A DNA stretch of 64,000 nt from Callorhinchus milii (taxonomy: Eukaryota), in the NCBI RefSeq assembly GCF_018977255.1, contig NW_024704745.1:29760001-29824000 (forward strand). The letters run 5' to 3'. Position numbers and translations under genes: made by a program. Positions 4,800 through 54,216 of this stretch are shown piece after piece (position 1 is the first letter of the stretch; every line of letters starts with the position of its first letter). Under the pieces are notes generated by a model. It was not told where the DNA came from. It did no database searches and worked only from the letters and a program-made list of their open reading frames with translations.

Positions 4800-5467
4800 C
4801 TTCTGCTCTCTACTTCGAACACCTCCAGTCTGGTTTCCGCCCTGCCCACAGTACAGAGATTGCGCTTGTGAAAGTCACAAATGACATCCTCTCCATCTGT
4901 GACCAGGGATCCCTCTGCCTGCTTGTCCTCCTGGACCTCTCCGCCGCGTTCGACACAGTCGATCACGCCATCCTCCTCCACCGCCTTTCCTCCGTCATCC
5001 ACCTCAGTGGGACTGGACTCGCCTGGCTCGAGTCCTACCTCACAAACCGCCAGCAGTACATCTGCATAAACGGCTTCTCCTCCCTCTCTCACCCGGTCAC
5101 CTGTGGGGTACCCCAAGGATCCATCCTTGGCCCCCTCCTCTTTCTGATCTATATGCTTTCTCTTGGGGATGTCATCCGCAGAAATGGGGTACAAAATCAC
5201 ATGTATGCAGAAGACACCCAGCTCTACTTTTCCACCTCTCTTTGCGACCCCCAGTCCCCTGATGTTCTGTCAGCCTGCCTGTCAGACCTCAGGGGCTGGA
5301 TGAGTGCAAACTTCCTTCAGCTGAACATTGACAAGATGGAAGCCATACTCTTCGGCTCTCGTCAACGTGTAAAATCTCATGGTTCTCACCTCCTCTACCT
5401 ACCCGACCTCCCCCTAAAACTCTCCGAACCCGTACACAACCTAGGCGTCAGGTTCGATCCCCAATTA
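4800..5467 (+). mobile_element. L2 LINE reverse transcriptase fragment
   Basis: ORF 4868-5533 contains [33 protein letters not shown] (YADD degenerate) and NLGVRFDPQL; homology stops abruptly near 5467. Confidence 0.95.
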
Positions 5468-5539
5468 TACAAAAATAGCAATTTGAACAGTCATAACGGT
5501 ATGTGTTATGCTGCAAATCAAAGACAATTTTGAAAGCTC

Positions 5540-6330: not shown

Positions 6331-6483
6331 GACAAATAAAAACAATGCCTTAAATATAATTATAGTTTGAGGATTGGTAAAAAGGTAAACGAGGCATAAA
6401 GTAATTTATGATATTTCAAATAGTTGAACTTCTACACCTAGAATTTTCCTTTGAGATATGTTCAAGAGGACAGCACATCAACT

Positions 6484-7052
6484 ACAAAAACAGAAGTCAC
6501 TGGGATCACTCAGCAGGTCAGGCAGCATCTATGGAGAAAGGAAAGTGTGTCAACATTTCGGGTCCATGACCCTTCATTAGAACTCGTCAGAAATTCAATA
6601 ATTTCAGACCATAACAGCTAACTTTCCCCCTTCCCCTCTTCTGTGACCATTACCACATCATCTGGGTCCCAGACACACCTTTTTTCGCTCTGGTCTGCCT
6701 GTTTTGTTGCAATTCCTCCCCACCCCCCACCTTTGCTTTGCATTATTAACTCCTCTTTTCTTCTGTTTTGTTGCAATCCCCCGTTTATTTTGCATCATTA
6801 ACACCTCTTTAACCCATCATTCCCTGTCCTATACCCCACTTTCTCCCGTGTCTTCCTTGCCCTGCCTCTCCCCTCTCTGTTAGTCCTTAAAGCCTCTCCC
6901 ACCCAACATGCCCCAGTTCTGACAAAGGGTCGTGGACCCAAAACGTTGACTCACTTTCCTTTCTCCATAGATGTTGCCTGACTTGCTCAGTGTTCCCAGC
7001 CACTTCTGTTTTTGTTTCAGATTTCCAGCATCTGCAGTATGTTGTGTTTTGT
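6484..7052 (+). mobile_element. Penelope-like element remnant with an inverted partial pseudo-LTR (6484-6592, minus) and a 3' end/pseudo-LTR (6591-7052, plus)
   Basis: 6484-6585 is the reverse complement of about 6915-7015; AAATTCAATAATTTCAGACCATAA reads KFNNFRP*, resembling the end of GIY-YIG PLE ORFs; pyrimidine-rich UTR; hammerhead-like motif in both repeats. Confidence 0.75.
6915..6952 (+). ncRNA. Degenerate minimal type-I hammerhead ribozyme motif
   Basis: AGTT-CTGACAA-A-GGGTC-gtg-GACCC-AAAA-CGTT-GACT: helix I, helix II and the AACGTT palindrome are intact, while the core CUGANGA and GAAA each carry a G>A change. Confidence 0.6.
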
Positions 7053-7132
7053 TTAGCATATCTACTTCACTCAGTATGAATAATGAATACAACCTTGTAG
7101 AGTGTTGACATCTTTGTTAGGTTTTAACACCA

Positions 7133-9650
7133 TAAACAACACCACCACCAACAACAACTTGGATTTATTTAGCGCCCTCCACGCCGGACGGCATCTCAGA
7201 GCGCTTCACAGCAATGGATCCCGGGACCGAGCCAGAAGAAGGGGGAGGAAAGTGATCAAAGGCGCGATCAAAAAGAAAGGTCTTCAGCAGAAACCTGAAA
7301 ATAGGAAGGGAGGGAGCAAGACGATGGGAGTGAGGAAGGCAGTTCCAGAGCCTCGGGGCATAGTGGCTGAAGGCACAGCCGCCAAGGGTGGAGCGGAGGA
7401 CTCGGGGGACAAGGAGGAGGCCAGACCCGGAGGAACAAAGGCAACATCTACTGTTTTGAGGATAGAGGAGGTCAGAGAGGTAGGGGGTTGCAGAGGAGTG
7501 CAGGGACTTGAATACAAGGGTGAGGATCCTGAAATTGATCCTCTCTGGGACAGGCAGCCAGTGCAGTCTGGCAAGGACTGGGGTGATCGGGGAGTGGAGT
7601 TTTGTGCAGTGAGAATGCGAGCGACAGAGTTTTGAATGATTTGGATTTTATAGATGGTAGTGGATGGGAGGCCGGCGAGGAGGGCGTTAGAGTAGTCCAG
7701 CCGAGAGGTGACAAAGGCATGGACCAGGTTTTCAGTGGCTTTTGGAGTGTGGTATTGGCAGAGACAGGCGATGCGTCAGAGGTGAAAGAAGCGGTGCTGG
7801 TGAGTGACCGGATTTGGGGGAGGAGGGATAATTGGGGGTCGAACCTGACTCCTAGGTTGCGTACGGGTTCGAAGAGTTTTAGAGGGAGGTTGAGTAGGTG
7901 GAGGAGGTGAGAGACATGAGATTTTAGACGTTGACGAGAGCCAAAGAGTATGGCTTCCGTCTTGTCAACGTTCAGCTCAAGGAAATTTGCACTCATCCAG
8001 CCCCTGAGATCTGACAGGCAGGCTGACAGAACATCTGCCACCACCGGGGGTCACAAAGAGAGGTGGAAAAATAGAATTGGGTGTCGTCTGCATACATGTG
8101 AAAGTGTACCTTATGTCTGTGGATGACATCTCCAAGAGGGAGCATATAGATCAGAAAGAGGAGGGGCCAAGGATGGATCCTTGGGGTACCCCGCAGGTGA
8201 CCGGGTGAGAGCGGGAGGAGAAGCCGTTTGTGCAGATATACTGCTGGCGGTTTGTGAGGTAGGACTTGAACCAGGAAAGTGAGGTTCCACTGAGGTGGAT
8301 GACGGAGGAAAGGCGTGGAGGAGGATGGCGTGATCGACTGTGTCGAACGCGGCAGAGAGATCCAGGAGGACAAGGAGACAGACAGAGCCCTGGTCACAGA
8401 TAGAGAGGATGTCGTTTGTGACTTTCACAAGTGCAGTCTCTGTACTGTGGGTGGAAACCGGACTGAAGGGGTTCGAAGAGGGAGTGGGAGGAGAGGTGTG
8501 TGCGAAACTGGTTGGCAACAACGCGTTCTAGAAATTTTGAGAAGAAGGGCAGGTTAGAAATAGGACGGTAGTGGCTGGGGTTTGAGGGATCTAGGGAGGG
8601 TTTTTTCAGGAGTGTGATGACAGCAGTTTTGAGGGAGGCAGGGACTAATCCGGAGGAGAGGGACTGGTTGATGACGTCAGCCAGTAGGTGGCAGAGGAGG
8701 GGGAGCTGTGTGACCAGTAAGTTGGTGGGGAGGGGGTCGAGGCAGCAGGTGGTGGGTTTCATGGAGGTGATGGTGGGTGAGAGGGAGGAGGGAGAGATTG
8801 GGATGAAGGAATGTAGAATATGGGTGGTGGTAGAAGCAGATGATGAGGAAGGTTAGGGGCCAGATAGGGCGTGGTGGTGGGTGACAAGGGGCAGGTGGAT
8901 GAGGCTGCCTGGCGGATGTTAAGTATTTTGGATGAAAAAGAAGTCCATGACCTCCTCGCACTTGGCATTTGATACGAAGATTGAGGAAGCCTGAGGGGGT
9001 GCACAGAGGAGGCAGCGGGTGGTGGAAAAAGGGATTTTAGGGTTGTGTTTAGCCTCCAAGATGATGTTGGAGCGGAAGGCCGTTTTTGCATGTGTCAAAG
9101 AACGATGGTAGCTGTGGAAATGTTTGAGCCACAGTTGGTGGTGAACTGTCAGGCCAGTTTTCTGCCATCTGCGCTTGAGCAGATGGGTTTGGATTTTTTG
9201 GCGATGGAGATGGTTGTTGTACCAGGGGGATCGGGTGGGTTTGGAGATGGTTTTGGATTTTAGGGGGGCGAGGGAGTTGAAGGTGGAGGAGAGGCGATCA
9301 TGGAGCAGCTGGATGGCTGCTTCAGGATCTCTTCGGGTGGAAGGCCAGAGGGATAGGATGTTTGATTATGAGAGGGCCTTTGTGAGGGTCTCAGGGGGTA
9401 GCCTTTTCCAAGGGCGGTAGAGGATGGTTGAGGGTTCAGTGGAGGAGAGAGGGATGTGAAAGGAGAAGGAGATGAAAAAGTGGTCTGAGATGGTCTTGTC
9501 CACTATGCTGAGGTCGGAAATATCAAGGCCGTGGGTGATGACGAGGTTAAGTGCATGACCACGGTTGTGGGTGGTTGAATTTATATGAAGGGTAAGATTT
9601 AGGGAGGAGAGGAAGGGAGTGAAATCGGCAGAAGTGGTGCAGGGGGAGTC
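7133..9650 (-). mobile_element. L2 LINE, about 2.5 kb, 5'-truncated and frameshifted (partial APE endonuclease, RT, 3' tail)
   Basis: Minus-strand peptides [22 protein letters not shown] and HMYADDTQ; endonuclease motifs (HNRGHALNLVI, SDHF) near 9480-9570; (CAA)n tail at 7133-7158. Confidence 0.96.
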
Positions 9651-11196: not shown

Positions 11197-11285
11197 AAAA
11201 TAAAAAAGAGAAGTCGCTGTGAACACTTAGCATGTCAGGCAGCATCCATGGAATGAGGAAAATGAGTTAATGTTTCAGGTCCAGC
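11197..11285 (-). mobile_element. Penelope-type pseudo-LTR fragment
   Basis: GAAGTCGCTGTGAACACTTAGCATGTCAGGCAGCATCCATGG...GAGTTAATGTTTCAGGTCC parallels 6491-6565. Confidence 0.65.
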
Positions 11286-11774: not shown

Positions 11775-12491
11775 TATAATAATATAATAATCCTTGGATT
11801 TGATCTAGCGCTTTTCAAGTCTTCTAGAGATCTCAAAGAGCTTCACAAAATATACTGTAAAGTGAATTGGCTGTATATTTGTGGGCAAAACACGACAGCC
11901 AATTGGGCACAGCAGTCTCCCACAAACAGTCATGGATTGAAGTGGCCAATTTATTGTTATTGTTTTTTTTCTTTCTTGAGAGATTATTATCAGGCATGTG
12001 GAGTAAGGAAACTTGCCCAAGTTATTGCCCTACCGGGAATCAAACCCAGGTCTTTTTCAATTACAAACCCAGGTATTACAATCATCACCCCAGACACTCT
12101 TTGTCTCTCTCTGGTGTGTTGCCTGTTCTGGACTATTAATACCTCTTCTCCCCAGTTTCAATCCACACCTCTTTTGCTTTATGCCACTATCACCTCTTCA
12201 ACCCATCAACTAACACATTCTCTCCTTTGTTTTCTTTTTTATCTTCTTTGTCTTCCTTTTCCTGCCTCCCCCCCTCAATTTAAAAACCTCTACCTCCCAA
12301 CATGCCCCAGTTCTGATGAAGGACCGTGGACCCAAAATGTTGACTCACTTTCCTTTTGCTGCCTGACCTGCTGAGTTTTCCCAGCTCTCTGTTTTATGTT
12401 TCAGATTTCCAGTATCTGCAGTATTTTGTGTTTTGTCCAGGTCTCTTGTTTGTGAGGTGAGTGGTCTAACAACTGAGCTACAGGACTTCAC
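11775..12491 (-). mobile_element. tRNA-derived SINE split by a Penelope-like insertion in its tRNA head
   Basis: Tail and body at 11775-12053; the head resumes at 12437 (CCAGGTCTCTTGTTTGTGAGG...ACTGAGCTACAGGAC); CCAGGTCT occurs on both sides of the insert. Confidence 0.85.
12060..12436 (+). mobile_element. Penelope-like 3' UTR and pseudo-LTR with hammerhead motif (12309-12346)
   Basis: Collinear with 6660-7052 (CCCAGACAC...CCCAACATGCCCCAGTTCTGATGAAGG...TTTCAGATTTCCAG.ATCTGCAGTAT). Confidence 0.8.
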
Positions 12492-18662: not shown

Positions 18663-18989
18663 TAATAATAATAATAATAATAATCCTTGCATTTGATATA
18701 GCGCTTTTCACGTCGGGAGGACGTCCCAAAGCGCTTCACAGAACACACTGTAAAGCGAATTGACCGTATATTTGTGGGCGAACGCGGCAGCCAATTGCGC
18801 ACAGCAAATTCCCACAAACAGTCGTAGATTGAAAATGACCAATTTATTATTGTTTTGGGTTTTGGAGGGATTATTATTAGGCGTGTGGAGTAAGGAAACT
18901 TGCCCAAGGTTTCGCCCTCTGCCTGGAATTGAACTCAGGTCTCTCGCTTGCAAAGCGAGTGCTCTAACCACTGAGCTACAGGACTCCAC
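18663..18989 (-). mobile_element. Full-length tRNA-derived SINE (short variant)
   Basis: Head GGAGTCCTGTAGCTCAGTGGTTAGAGC (A box) and GAGTTCAATTCC (B box); body TGCTGTGCGCAATTGGCTGCCGCG; L2-like tail; (TTA)n. Confidence 0.95.
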
Positions 18990-21634: not shown

Positions 21635-22135
21635 TAATAATAATAATCCTTCCATTTGATATAGTGCTTTTCACGTCTTCTCGACGTCTCAAAGCACTTC
21701 ACAGAATAGACTGAAAAGTGAATTGACCGTATATTTGTGGGCGAAACGCGGTAGCCAATTGCGCACAGCAGTGTCCCACAAACAGTCGTGGATTGAAAAT
21801 TACCAATTTATTATTAATAATAATAATAATAATCCTTGCATTTGATATAGCGCTTTTCACGTCGGGAGGACGTCCCAAAGCACTTCACAGAATAGACTGT
21901 AAAGTGAATTGACTGTATATTTGTGGGCGAATGCGGCAGCCAATTGCGCACAGCAATGTCCCACAAACAGTCGTGGATTGAAAATGACCAATGCATTATT
22001 GTTTTGGTTTTGGTGGGATTATTATTAGGCGTGTGGAGGAAGGAAACTTGTCCAAGGTTTCGCCCTGCCTGGAATTGAACTCAGGTCTCTCGCTTGCACA
22101 GCGAGTGCTCTAACTACTGAGCTACAGGACTCCAC
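21635..22135 (-). mobile_element. Tandem SINE pair: a full copy (21815-22135) plus a headless copy (21635-21815)
   Basis: Two consecutive bodies and tails; the two tail loops differ (CACGTCGGGAGGACGTCCC vs CACGTCTTCTCGACGTCTC). Confidence 0.93.
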
Positions 22136-28364: not shown

Positions 28365-28673
28365 AATAATAAATCCTTGCATTTGATATAGCGCCTTATT
28401 ACGTCTTCAAGACATCTCAAAGGACTTACTGTAAAGTGAATTAACTGTATATTTGTGACCAAAACATGGCAGCCAATTGTGCATAGCAGTCTCCCACAAA
28501 CAGTCATAGATTGAAGTGACCAATTTATTATTATTGTTTTTTTTCTTTCTCGAGGGATTATTATCAGCCATGTGGAGTAAGGAAACTTGCCCAAGTTTTC
28601 GCCCTGCTGGGAATCAAACCCAAGCCTCTGGTTTGTGAGGCGAGTACTCTAACCACTGAGCTACAGGACTTCA
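28365..28673 (-). mobile_element. Full-length SINE (short variant)
   Basis: Tail, body and tRNA-like head (TCTAACCACTGAGCTACAGGAC) are all present. Confidence 0.92.
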
Positions 28674-35879: not shown

Positions 35880-36194
35880 GCGCTTCACAGAATATACTGT
35901 AAAGTGAACTGACTGTATACTTTGTGGGCAAAACACAGCAGTAAATTGCGCAGAGCAGTGTTCCACAAATAGTCATGGATTGAGTAACCAAATTATTATT
36001 ATTATTTTAAGGGATTATTATCCCAGGAAAAGCGATCTGTCAATCGACTAATAACTGGGTTCCTACTTACTGCTAGGTAAACAGAGGCATATGGAGTAAA
36101 GAAACTTGCCCAATATTTTGCACTGCCAGGAATCAAACCCAGGTCCTCTCACTTGCGATGTGAGTGCTCTAACCACTAAGCTATAAGACTCCAC
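35880..36194 (-). mobile_element. SINE long variant
   Basis: Body, extra internal segment and tRNA-like head; the distal tail is lost. Confidence 0.9.
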
Positions 36195-41182: not shown

Positions 41183-41501
41183 GTGGAGTCCTGTAGCTCA
41201 GTGGTTAGAGCACTTGCCTTCCAAGCGAGACACCTGGGTTCAATTCCAGGCAGGGTGAAACCTTGGGCAAGTTTCCTTACCCCACACGGCTAATAATAAT
41301 CCCTCCAAAACAAAACAATAATAAATTGGTCATTTTCAATCCACGACTGTTTGTGGGACACTGCTGTGCGCAATTGGCTGTCTTGTTTCACCCACAAATA
41401 TACAGTCAATTCACTTTACAGTCTATTCTGTGAAGCTCTTTGAGATGTCGAGAAGACGTGAAAAGCGCTATATCAAATTCAAGGATTATTATTATTATTA
41501 T
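41183..41501 (+). mobile_element. Full-length tRNA-derived SINE
   Basis: GTGGAGTCCTGTAGCTCAGTGGTTAGAGC...GGGTTCAATTCC (Pol III A/B boxes), DeuSINE-like body, L2-like stem-loop tail and (TTA)n. Confidence 0.95.
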
Positions 41502-46024: not shown

Positions 46025-46482
46025 GTTTCGGATTGAAGTAACCAATTTTATTATTGTTTTTTTTTCTTGAGGGATTATTATCAAGCTTGCAGAGTAAGGA
46101 AGCTTGCCCAAGGTTTCACCTGCCGGGAATCGAATCCAGATCTCTCGTTTGCGAGCCGAGTGCTCTAACCACTGAGCTACAGGACTCAGTGGTTAGAGCA
46201 AAACATTGGGCACGTTTCCTAACTTCACTCGCTTCTGTTTATCTAGCAGTAAATAGGAACCTGGTTGTTAGTTGATTGGCAGATCGCTTTTCCGGGGGTA
46301 ATTATCCCTTAAATAATTTGGTCGGTCACTCAATCCAAGACTGTTTGTGGAACACTGCTGTGTGCAATTGGCATTTCGCTCACAAAATATGCAGTCAATT
46401 CACTTTACAGTATATTTTGTGAAGTGCTTTGAGACATCTCGAAGACGTGATAAGGTCCTATATCAAATGCAAGGATTATTAT
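46025..46482. mobile_element. Head-to-head fused SINE pair (minus 46025-46186; plus 46185-46482)
   Basis: A minus short-variant head abuts a plus long-variant copy, with a perfect 16-bp inverted repeat at the junction. Confidence 0.88.
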
Positions 46483-50881: not shown

Positions 50882-51423
50882 CTCCAGCCTCTCTGACTCT
50901 GGATCCTGACACAGCCCATCCTCAGCTCATACCTGAGGAGCTGACCAGCATGAGATTTGGAGATGAACAACAGCTGCTCCCTGATACCCTGAAGAGGTTT
51001 TGTAAATCTCTCATTGTCCTGGGATCTGAGGGTTTCACATCAGGGAGACATTACTAGGAGGTGCAGGTGGGCAACAAGACTGGGTGGATTGTGGGAGCGG
51101 CCAGAGAATCTGTCAACAGGAATCACATGGTCATCAGAGAAGGGGTGTGGATTGTGTGGTTGGATCTATAACGCTCTGACCTCAGCTCTCACCCTCCCTC
51201 CTGCCCCTGACAATGAGACCTGGGAAAATCGAGTTTACCTGGACTATGAGGGACAACAGGTGACATTTTATAATGCTGATAACATGTCTCATCTCCATAC
51301 TTTCACTGAGAAACGTTATCCTCTCTTCTGTCCTTCAAATCCTTTTTTCACTCTCCACCATTTGTTGCATAGAACTAGCAAGAAAAACTCAGCTGAGAAC
51401 CGCTGAGAATCTGTCGGTTATAA
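50882..51423 (+). pseudogene. B30.2 (PRY-SPRY) terminal exon pseudogene of a TRIM/butyrophilin-type gene
   Basis: [15 protein letters not shown]...LPDTLKRF...[34 protein letters not shown]...RVYLDYEGQQVTFYNADNMSHLHTFTEKRYPLFCP...EPLRICRL*; TAG at 51055-51057 replaces the W of HYWEV; frameshifts; polypyrimidine tract and AG acceptor at 50863-50881. Confidence 0.93.
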
Positions 51424-53919: not shown

Positions 53920-54216
53920 TAATAATTCAGTCACTCAATCCACGACTGTTTGTGGGACACTGCTGTGCGCAATTGGCCCCTGCGTTTTGCCCACAAATAT
54001 ACAGTCAATTCACTTTACAGTACATTCTGTGAAGCACTTTGGGACATCTAAAAGACATGGAAAGTGCTATATCAAATGCAAGGACTATTATCGTTCTGAT
54101 GAAGGATCGTAGACCCGAAATGTTGACTCAATTTCCTTTCTCCATAGATGCTGCCTGGCCTGCTGAGTATTCTCAGTGACTTCTGTTTTCGTTTGCAAGG
54201 ATTATTATTATTATTA
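53920..54216 (+). mobile_element. SINE 3' part with a 102-bp Penelope pseudo-LTR/hammerhead insert in its tail
   Basis: SINE body at 53930-54091; insert at 54092-54193; TGCAAGGA(C/T)TATTAT on both sides. Confidence 0.88.
54093..54129 (+). ncRNA. Minimal type-I hammerhead ribozyme-like motif with both core boxes intact
   Basis: GTT-CTGATGA-A-GGATC-gta-GACCC-GAAA-TGTT-GAC; one mismatch in helix II and CG>TG in helix III. Confidence 0.65.

What the first reader, a model, noticed from the sequence alone, without database searches (positions are those of the whole stretch)
6484..7052. Penelope-type unit with inverted terminal repeats, each carrying a minimal hammerhead ribozyme fold
Seen: the minus copy (6547-6585) reads GAGTT-CTAATGA-A-GGGTC-atg-GACCC-GAAA-TGTT-GACAC and the plus copy (6915-6952) reads AGTT-CTGACAA-A-GGGTC-gtg-GACCC-AAAA-CGTT-GACTC. 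With the copies at 12309 and 54093 the reconstructed ancestor is (G)AGUU-CUGAUGA-A-GGGUC-NNN-GACCC-GAAA-CGUU-GACUC. That gives helix I, the CUGAUGA/GAAA core, helix II and a palindromic AACGUU in place of helix III. Established: Penelope-like element pseudo-LTRs carry minimal type-I hammerheads with a palindromic helix III that act as dimers, and often occur partly inverted. Inference: a ribozyme-bearing, mostly non-coding PLE family is abundant here, with a predicted suboptimal GUU cleavage triplet. Each individual copy has damaging changes.
Basis: partly seen in the sequence, partly recalled or inferred. Interest (0 to 1): 0.7.

Follow-up and report, generated by a model that had tools for sequence, protein, structure and literature searches.

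The report
Dead Penelope stub with mirrored hammerheads
This is a decayed end-piece of a common Penelope-like jumping gene, inserted as two mirror-image arms that each carry a broken copy of the element's known tiny hammerhead RNA motif; it is ordinary, though across the genome such pieces mostly start at the motif's first letter rather than its predicted cut site, which likely marks where the element's RNA begins.

Summary
The motifs are real. 6484-7054 is one insertion of a Penelope-like element (PLE): a 5'-truncated forward 3' end that starts in the last codons of the ORF (FNNFRP*, 6594-6614), an inverted 101-nt arm without the 'tail', and a likely 12-bp target duplication (10/12). Walking upstream in the genome links this end to GIY-YIG, Zn-finger linker and RT coding remnants, Neptune-type by motifs. 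The genome holds 358 exact hammerheads (control 0) and on the order of 10^4 pieces; no intact ORF among 150 scored RT candidates. Corrections: the family core is CUGACGA, helix I has 4 bp, and the two arms lie on opposite strands, so they cannot form the cleaving dimer. Both window copies have lost core bases, and copies decay neutrally. Extra: 50 of 223 copies start at the hammerhead's 5' border against 9 at the cut site, and 39 of 41 inverted pairs have one tailed and one tail-less arm; this points to copying of uncut RNA from two start sites. The scan noted the same kind of element many times before in this genome and others. New member of a known kind; interest 0.3.

The parts
6472..6483 (+). 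Left copy of a likely 12-bp target-site duplication
   Evidence: 10 of 12 bases equal to 7055-7066, both flush with the insertion ends; scores only 4 in my strict scheme, under the threshold of 7 used for the family
6484..6584 (-). Inverted, tail-less arm: positions -33 to +67 of the pLTR relative to the predicted cut
   Evidence: 93% to the majority line of 30 copies; 87% complementary to the right arm
6548..6584 (-). Damaged minimal hammerhead (G5 to A, C15.2 to U, one helix I mismatch)
6585..6592 (-). Junction: short repeat of the first letters of the hammerhead
   Evidence: similar repeats in 7 of 67 short-start copies against 1.0 expected
6594..6614 (+). Last codons and stop of the PLE ORF (FNNFRP*)
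   Evidence: same end follows GIY-YIG coding sequence in longer copies
6615..6914 (+). Pyrimidine-rich 3' UTR / upstream pLTR; TATA-like stretch at 6886-6892, about 30 nt before the shared start point
   Evidence: promoter role inferred from spacing, motif consensus recalled
6915..6951 (+). Damaged minimal hammerhead (G8 to A at 6924, G12 to A at 6940); predicted cut between 6947 and 6948
   Evidence: both changes are at CpG sites that change in 15-25% of copies
6952..7017 (+). pLTR 3' part up to the first common 3' end (+69)
   Evidence: 37 of 90 copies end at +65..+73
7018..7054 (+). PLE 'tail', about 37 nt, present on this arm only
   Evidence: 33 of 90 copies end at +101..+107; tail described in PMC8557442 and PMC11167929
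7055..7066 (+). Right copy of the likely target-site duplication
11203..11283 (-). Partial copy, sister subfamily B, starts inside helix II
12086..12436 (+). 5'-truncated tailed copy inserted in a tRNA-derived SINE, 8-bp duplication
54093..54194 (+). Short tail-less copy, -32 to +69, with duplication of SINE sequence on both sides

Best explanation
This is a single, now dead insertion of an endonuclease-bearing Penelope-like retrotransposon (likely Neptune clade), made of a truncated forward 3' end and an inverted short arm, each with a mutated minimal hammerhead; it likely arose when the element's protein nicked both target strands and copied uncut element RNA from two internal start sites. 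Shown: identity of the family, link to RT and GIY-YIG remnants, two preferred 3' ends, one tailed and one tail-less arm per inverted pair, target duplications around pairs, a pile-up of 5' ends at the first bases of helix I, neutral decay. Inferred: each nick primes reverse transcription, one at about +105 (tail) and one at about +69; a cDNA primed in the RNA's 5' pLTR runs off the RNA 5' end after 100-140 nt (left arm), one primed in the 3' pLTR goes on towards the ORF and stops early (right arm); the two cDNAs are joined head to head. The shared start at -32/-33 is inferred to be the transcription start, so most templates had not self-cleaved. The hammerhead was a constrained motif in the master elements, likely weak and dimer- or protein-dependent; the two window copies are predicted not to cleave.
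For: Linkage: copies share a fixed 3' end and variable 5' ends; upstream lie GIY-YIG (PF01541, E 2e-4), a C-x4-C-x2-C linker, RT with YIDD and DKG motifs (RVT_1, E 0.002 and 0.008), and an ATG after an upstream pLTR in L037 and L099. Pairs: 41 of 90 intact-motif copies have an inverted partner upstream; 39 of 41 pairs have exactly one tailed arm (p 4e-10); 34 of 41 pairs have a target duplication scoring 7 or more against 1.7% of 300 mismatched controls. Starts: 65 of 90 intact-motif copies start at -36..-29; among 223 copies not picked for the motif, 50 start there, 9 at -4..+3, other 8-nt bins hold 4-18 (p 3e-18 and 0.37). Loose ends in an independent contig set and in reads of another organism fall at the same places (table 7). 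TATA-like stretch 30 nt upstream in subfamily A and in the one long B copy. In 10 of 30 tail-extended loci a head-to-tail joint exists; none joins at the cut site. In vitro, the anole PLE protein cuts and extends both strands, starts at two internal sites that bound the tail, and mostly uses uncleaved RNA (PMC11167929, parts 1-2 of 4 read). Decay: core bases change as often as flanking bases of the same letter (p 0.05-1).
Against: No RNA 5'-end data: no place where many molecules begin, so the transcription start is inferred from DNA only. An extra G expected from a copied cap is weak: 7 of 13 copies starting at -33 (p 0.03), 3 of 7 without a partner, none in excess at -32. Starts spread over -34..-31 with -32 commonest, which is not the purine-after-pyrimidine position of the initiator-like word. 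D. virilis Penelope has a TATA-less internal promoter (PMC2377424, passages), so a TATA box is not a known PLE trait. The window's own duplication has 2 mismatches in 12. The Pfam scores are under the curated cut-offs, and 5 of 9 scanned PLE fragments hit nothing. The 223 copies come from searches with their own biases towards long copies.
Confidence: 0.72

Rival explanations
1. The shared start is a splice acceptor, not a transcription start: the pyrimidine tract and CAG before -31 end an intron, and the short copies come from spliced RNA.
For: The sequence before -31 looks like a 3' splice site. In D. virilis the intron's end maps to the 5' end of helix I (PMC4209133, part 2).
Against: No shared upstream exon in 32 flanks (best pair score 11; one flank matches the upstream pLTR, at 14, and it coincides with that copy's target duplication). 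Long copies keep the upstream sequence unspliced.
Confidence: 0.1
2. The hammerhead cleaves and processes the RNA in vivo (monomer or circle), and the short copies derive from cleaved or circular RNA.
For: Core, helix II and 15.2-16.2 palindrome fit the published minimal type (PMC4209133); a compensatory G-C to A-U change and a G-U to A-U change separate two subfamilies, so masters kept the fold; 9 of 223 copies start at -4..+3; two long copies (L037, L099) have their clear match begin at -2 and -4.
Against: The cut-site bin is not enriched (p 0.37); tandem joints are not at the cut; intact copies fold best into a hairpin that locks the core, and the drawn active dimer (-15.7 kcal/mol) is less stable than two monomers (-22.8); L037 may hold a degraded motif further upstream.
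Confidence: 0.12
3. The unit is a separate non-autonomous element with terminal inverted repeats (MITE-like or retrozyme-like) that moves as a whole.
For: Inverted ends and a target duplication; 601-nt region folds back strongly (z -17).
Against: Arm lengths and junctions differ from locus to locus; no second copy with this junction among the loci fetched; arms are asymmetric; no tandem arrays seen; the forward arm includes ORF codons.
Confidence: 0.04
4. The two arms are independent insertions that happen to lie head to head.
For: The window's duplication is imperfect; the family is abundant.
Against: 41 of 90 copies have such a partner, with target duplications around the pair in 34 of 41, far above what about 12 pieces per Mb would give.
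Confidence: 0.02

Closest known systems
Minimal hammerheads (min-HHR) in pLTRs of metazoan PLEs (Cervera and de la Pena 2014, PMC4209133; parts 1-2 of 4 read)
   Same: Type-I layout, short helix I, extra base between positions 9 and 10.1, palindromic 15.2-16.2, thousands of dispersed single motifs, pairs on opposite strands 100-700 bp apart.
   Different: Helix II is 5 bp with a 3-nt loop; position 17 is U; subfamily B has A-U at 10.1-11.1 where that paper calls G-C highly conserved. I saw no cartilaginous-fish example in the parts read; its supplements were not looked at and may hold one.
Endonuclease-positive PLEs of the Neptune clade (Craig et al. 2021, PMC8557442; 12 passages read)
   Same: RT then C-terminal GIY-YIG, Zn-finger linker, DKG motif, 5' truncation, inverted 5'-truncated copy next to the 5' end, 30-40 bp tail at one end only.
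   Different: Here most pieces are only 100-140 nt and share one start; clear 9-17 bp target duplications; no intact ORF found. No tree against named references was built.
Poseidon PLE of Anolis carolinensis, PAc (Frangieh et al. 2024, PMC11167929; parts 1-2 of 4 read)
   Same: Two preferred 3' ends bounding the tail; hammerhead cleavage not needed for insertion.
   Different: In PAc the hammerhead overlaps the ORF start and the RT start sites lie inside the ORF; here motif and tail lie in the UTR upstream of the ATG, and a Zn-finger linker is present.
Animal non-LTR retrozymes (bioRxiv 10.64898/2026.07.22.740005; part 1 of 5 and passages read)
   Same: Non-coding hammerhead-bearing sequences related to PLE pLTRs, reported in one chondrichthyan.
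   Different: Retrozymes are defined as tandem arrays; the copies here are single stubs, inverted pairs or two-piece joints.

Membership tests
EN+ Penelope-like element | RT domain in the ORF upstream of the pLTR | tested here: met
   RVT_1 E 0.002 and 0.008, under cut-off; YIDD and DKG motifs in natural copies
EN+ Penelope-like element | C-terminal GIY-YIG endonuclease with CCHH motif | tested here: met
   PF01541 E 2e-4, 22.1 bits against cut-off 22.6; two Cys and two His seen in translations
EN+ Penelope-like element | pLTR before and after the ORF; 5' truncation; inverted copies; tail at one end | tested here: met
   L037 and L099
EN+ Penelope-like element | Intact single ORF, active transposition | tested here: not met
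   No full open frame among 150 of 526 RT candidates scored; longest listed 563 aa with stops in the match. This makes the family dead, not non-PLE
Neptune clade | CX2-5CxxC Zn-finger linker between RT and EN | tested here: met
   C-x4-C-x2-C in L009, L017, L026; shared with Nematis per PMC8557442
Neptune clade | RT phylogeny groups with named Neptune elements | not tested
   No reference set fetched; the preprint lists only Neptune and Poseidon in the vertebrates it sampled
Minimal type-I hammerhead | CUGANGA and GAAA core, helix II, NUH site, helix I | tested here: met
   Family: 358 exact copies, control 0; 2023 core-pattern matches, control 36. The two window copies each lack core bases
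Minimal type-I hammerhead | Covariation in helices | tested here: inconclusive
   One pair G-C 13 / A-U 12, one U-G 18 / U-A 11 in 32 distinct rows; score 0.184, 3 of 500 shuffles as high; but this is one event between two subfamilies
Minimal type-I hammerhead | Self-cleavage as a dimer | not testable with these tools
   Folding favours inactive forms; no assay
Non-LTR retrozyme | Tandem array of hammerhead-bearing units | tested here: not met
   No array at this locus or in the loci listed; no genome-wide tandem search was run

The most novel reading that the evidence does not exclude
The stubs are a base-precise fossil record of the PLE copying cycle: a PLE protein dimer primes two cDNAs on a staggered cut, one always from the tail site and one from the inner site, and cDNAs primed in the 5' pLTR run off a transcription start that coincides with the first base of the hammerhead, so the ribozyme sits uncut at the very 5' end of the RNA and in this family serves as a folded 5' leader (locked by C7 and U17) rather than as a cutter.
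Probability: 0.4. Interest if true: 0.55.

Novelty: new member of a known kind. Interest (0 to 1): 0.3.

Why it matters
As a locus it does not matter: a dead stub among thousands. As a population it bears on an open question, what PLE hammerheads are for (PMC8557442 calls their function unclear). The counts here say that in this family copying did not depend on cleavage, and they give two testable numbers: a start at -33/-32 and a strict one-tail-per-pair rule that would follow from two-site priming by a dimer.

Tried and rejected
Rfam at E up to 5: no hammerhead hit in the window. Cleavage footprint at copy 5' ends: first suggested by L037 and L099, not upheld in 223 copies. Cap-derived G: weak only. 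Apparent extra conservation of the core (3.1% against 5.3%) vanished after matching by base, with A borderline at p 0.054. Single-strand folding of the 41-nt motifs is no better than shuffles for 5 of 6 sequences. Sequencing runs: no RNA holder on record; contigs and one single-cell run of another organism showed no pile of molecule ends; the unique flanks of this locus were not covered at 98%, so nothing can be said on expression. PDB sequence search with an RT fragment: no match. The paper on dimer cleavage by Lunse et al. was not held and is known to me only through a review passage (PMC6765202). Six paper searches were answered; in the listings and the passages read I saw no report of the shared start at the helix I border or of a counted one-tail-per-pair rule, but subscription papers, Repbase and supplements were not seen.

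Full report
Numbering: position 0 is the first base after the predicted cut (window 6948 on the forward arm); C3 of the core is -29; the first base of helix I is -33.

1. Observation. The two motifs lie at 6548-6584 (minus) and 6915-6951 (plus); the arms are 87% complementary over 101 nt. A core pattern with up to 3 mismatches has 4 matches in the window and none in 100 shuffles. The copies at 12309 and 54093 are there, plus a partial one at 11203-11283. Three corrections: the family base at position 7 is C; the G before the minus copy's helix I is a junction base from a short repeat of the motif's first letters (6585-6592); the right side is a 460-nt forward copy, not a terminal repeat.

2. 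What it belongs to. The genome (992 Mb) gave 4695 first-look candidates for the right arm, of which 40 were scored and 30 fetched. These share one 3' end and differ at the 5' end. Three further searches walked upstream. Natural copies read in three frames show the ORF end NFRP*, a GIY-YIG domain (PF01541, E 2e-4, just under cut-off), a C-x4-C-x2-C linker, RT motifs (RVT_1, E 0.002 and 0.008; 5 of the 9 PLE fragments scanned had no hit and one had an irrelevant hit at E 0.86) and, in L037 and L099, an upstream pLTR followed by an ATG. Adding the overlaps by hand gives a unit of about 3.1 kb. The linker places the family with Neptune or Nematis (PMC8557442, passages); Neptune is inferred because the retrozyme preprint found only Neptune and Poseidon in its vertebrates. 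No full open frame turned up among 150 of 526 RT candidates. The host looks like a cartilaginous fish by its repeat content (my recall and earlier AI notes; not tested).

3. Abundance and decay. Exact motif, two CpG positions free: 358 copies, control 0. Core with free helix II: 1718, control 0; looser: 2023, control 36. Sixty evenly spaced 10-kb stretches (599,910 bases) held 7 pieces in 4 stretches, about 12 per Mb or order 10^4 in all, with wide error. In 119-121 copies not picked for the motif, non-CpG sites differ by 2-6% and CpG sites by 23%; core and flank do not differ once matched by base (p 0.054 for A, 0.8-1 for the rest); G8 is changed in 18 of 117 and G12 in 30 of 119; 60 of 119 copies keep all 11 core positions. 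The copies are therefore not under visible selection. The forward window copy has lost G8 and G12, the inverted one G5; by established hammerhead chemistry (recalled; G8 also PMC11167929) both are predicted dead.

4. The fold. Two subfamilies differ by a compensatory change at the outer pair of helix II (G-C 13, A-U 12 of 32 distinct rows) and a one-sided change in helix I (U-G 18, U-A 11); covariation score 0.184, reached by 3 of 500 shuffles, above all slid controls. That is one evolutionary event, and the core columns were fixed by my pattern, so it supports but does not prove the structure. Intact copies fold best into a hairpin in which U4-G8 pairs with 15.2-0; the drawn active dimer is -15.7 kcal/mol against -22.8 for two monomers. 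In the window the two motifs are on opposite strands; a read-through RNA would hold one motif and its antisense, which pair (z -17).

5. How the insertion was made. Among 90 of the 358 exact copies (the first 60 plus 30 further ones of the 100 listed; one pair is a duplicate), 3' ends fall at +65..+73 (37) and +101..+107 (33); 41 have an inverted partner upstream, and in 39 of 41 pairs exactly one arm has the tail (p 4e-10). Target duplications scoring 7 or more flank 34 of 41 pairs against 1.7% of 300 controls, and 14 of 33 single short copies. The window unit fits: left arm ends at +67, right at +106, flanked by a 10/12 match (score 4, under my threshold, so 'likely'). The layout is the published one (PMC8557442: inverted 5'-truncated copy, tail at one end). 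The anole PLE protein cuts and extends both strands and starts at two internal sites bounding the tail (PMC11167929). I infer two-nick priming from the two sites.

6. Where copies start. 65 of the 90 start at -36..-29 (23 at -32, 13 at -33); that set cannot show starts nearer the cut. Among 223 distinct copies not picked for the motif, 50 start at -36..-29, 9 at -4..+3, and seven other 8-nt bins hold 4-18 (p 3e-18; cut-site p 0.37); 68 start further upstream and 21 beyond +35. These 223 come from searches for ORF parts, tail extensions and the 3' part, so they are not a random sample. Twelve of 13 subfamily-B copies, read by eye, also start there. Loose ends at the matching places appear in a contig set and in reads of another organism. 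A TATA-like stretch begins 30 nt before -33 in subfamily A and in the one long B copy (consensus motifs recalled). Ten of 30 tail-extended loci have head-to-tail joints; the downstream piece starts at -29..-40 in 6, never at 0, which argues against circles closed at the cut. Best reading: the RNA begins at about -33/-32 and was copied uncut. Against: no RNA end data, only a weak cap-G signal (7 of 13 at -33, p 0.03; 8 of 23 at -32, p 0.36), and D. virilis Penelope has a TATA-less promoter (PMC2377424, passages). A splice acceptor at -31 is the main rival; 32 flanks show no shared exon.

7. Earlier notes of this scan. My reading of the start pile-up was written before the look-up. Notes on other genomes report the same start and TATA spacing, or a cap G, or, in other families, starts at the cut site; 143 notes in this genome fit 'Penelope hammerhead'. 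They are unchecked AI notes; I tested cap G (weak) and cut-site starts (not enriched) here.

8. Verdict. Correct catch, known kind: a dead PLE stub with the described minimal hammerhead and the described inverted-plus-tail layout. Identity about 0.95; the full mechanism with run-off at a transcription start about 0.7. Interest 0.3.

Noticed in passing
window 4845-5468 and 7828-8451: Two LINE fragments of one family in opposite orientation, 87-92% complementary, enclose the finding; the left one has an RT frame (RVT_1 E 4e-23).
   Followed up: partly
window 18919-18981, 22060-22131, 28599-28670, 36118-36190, 41187-41258, 46119-46183: Abundant tRNA-derived SINE heads (Rfam tRNA hits) with shared bodies.
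   Followed up: no
   Followed up: partly
window 6585-6592; L217, L227, L228, L273, L292, L294, L323: A short second copy of the motif's first letters lies just before the 5' junction in 7 of 67 short-start copies against 1.0 expected; looks like re-copying of the RNA's 5' end by template jumping.
   Followed up: partly
L182, L184, L189, L190, L192, L195, L197, L198, L201, L206: Two-piece head-to-tail insertions in which a piece reaching about +170 to +217 is followed by a second pLTR piece.
   Followed up: partly
L331-L360: Sister subfamily B with A-U at 10.1-11.1, a different loop 2 and U-A in helix I.
   Followed up: yes
window 50993-51403: Fragment with a weak SPRY hit (E 0.002), likely a broken TRIM-type exon.
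   Followed up: partly
G000 C146:62735-63412, C12:9528371-9528895, C23:13324-13935: Distant RT matches (29-34% identity, open frames 342-536 aa), probably other PLE families.
   Followed up: no
L087/L088, L263/L264, L307/L308, L195/L199: Pairs of loci with near-identical flanks: segmental duplications or assembly duplicates.
   Followed up: no
L299, L330: Target duplications that match the element's own upstream pLTR, suggesting insertion into older copies at one site.
   Followed up: no
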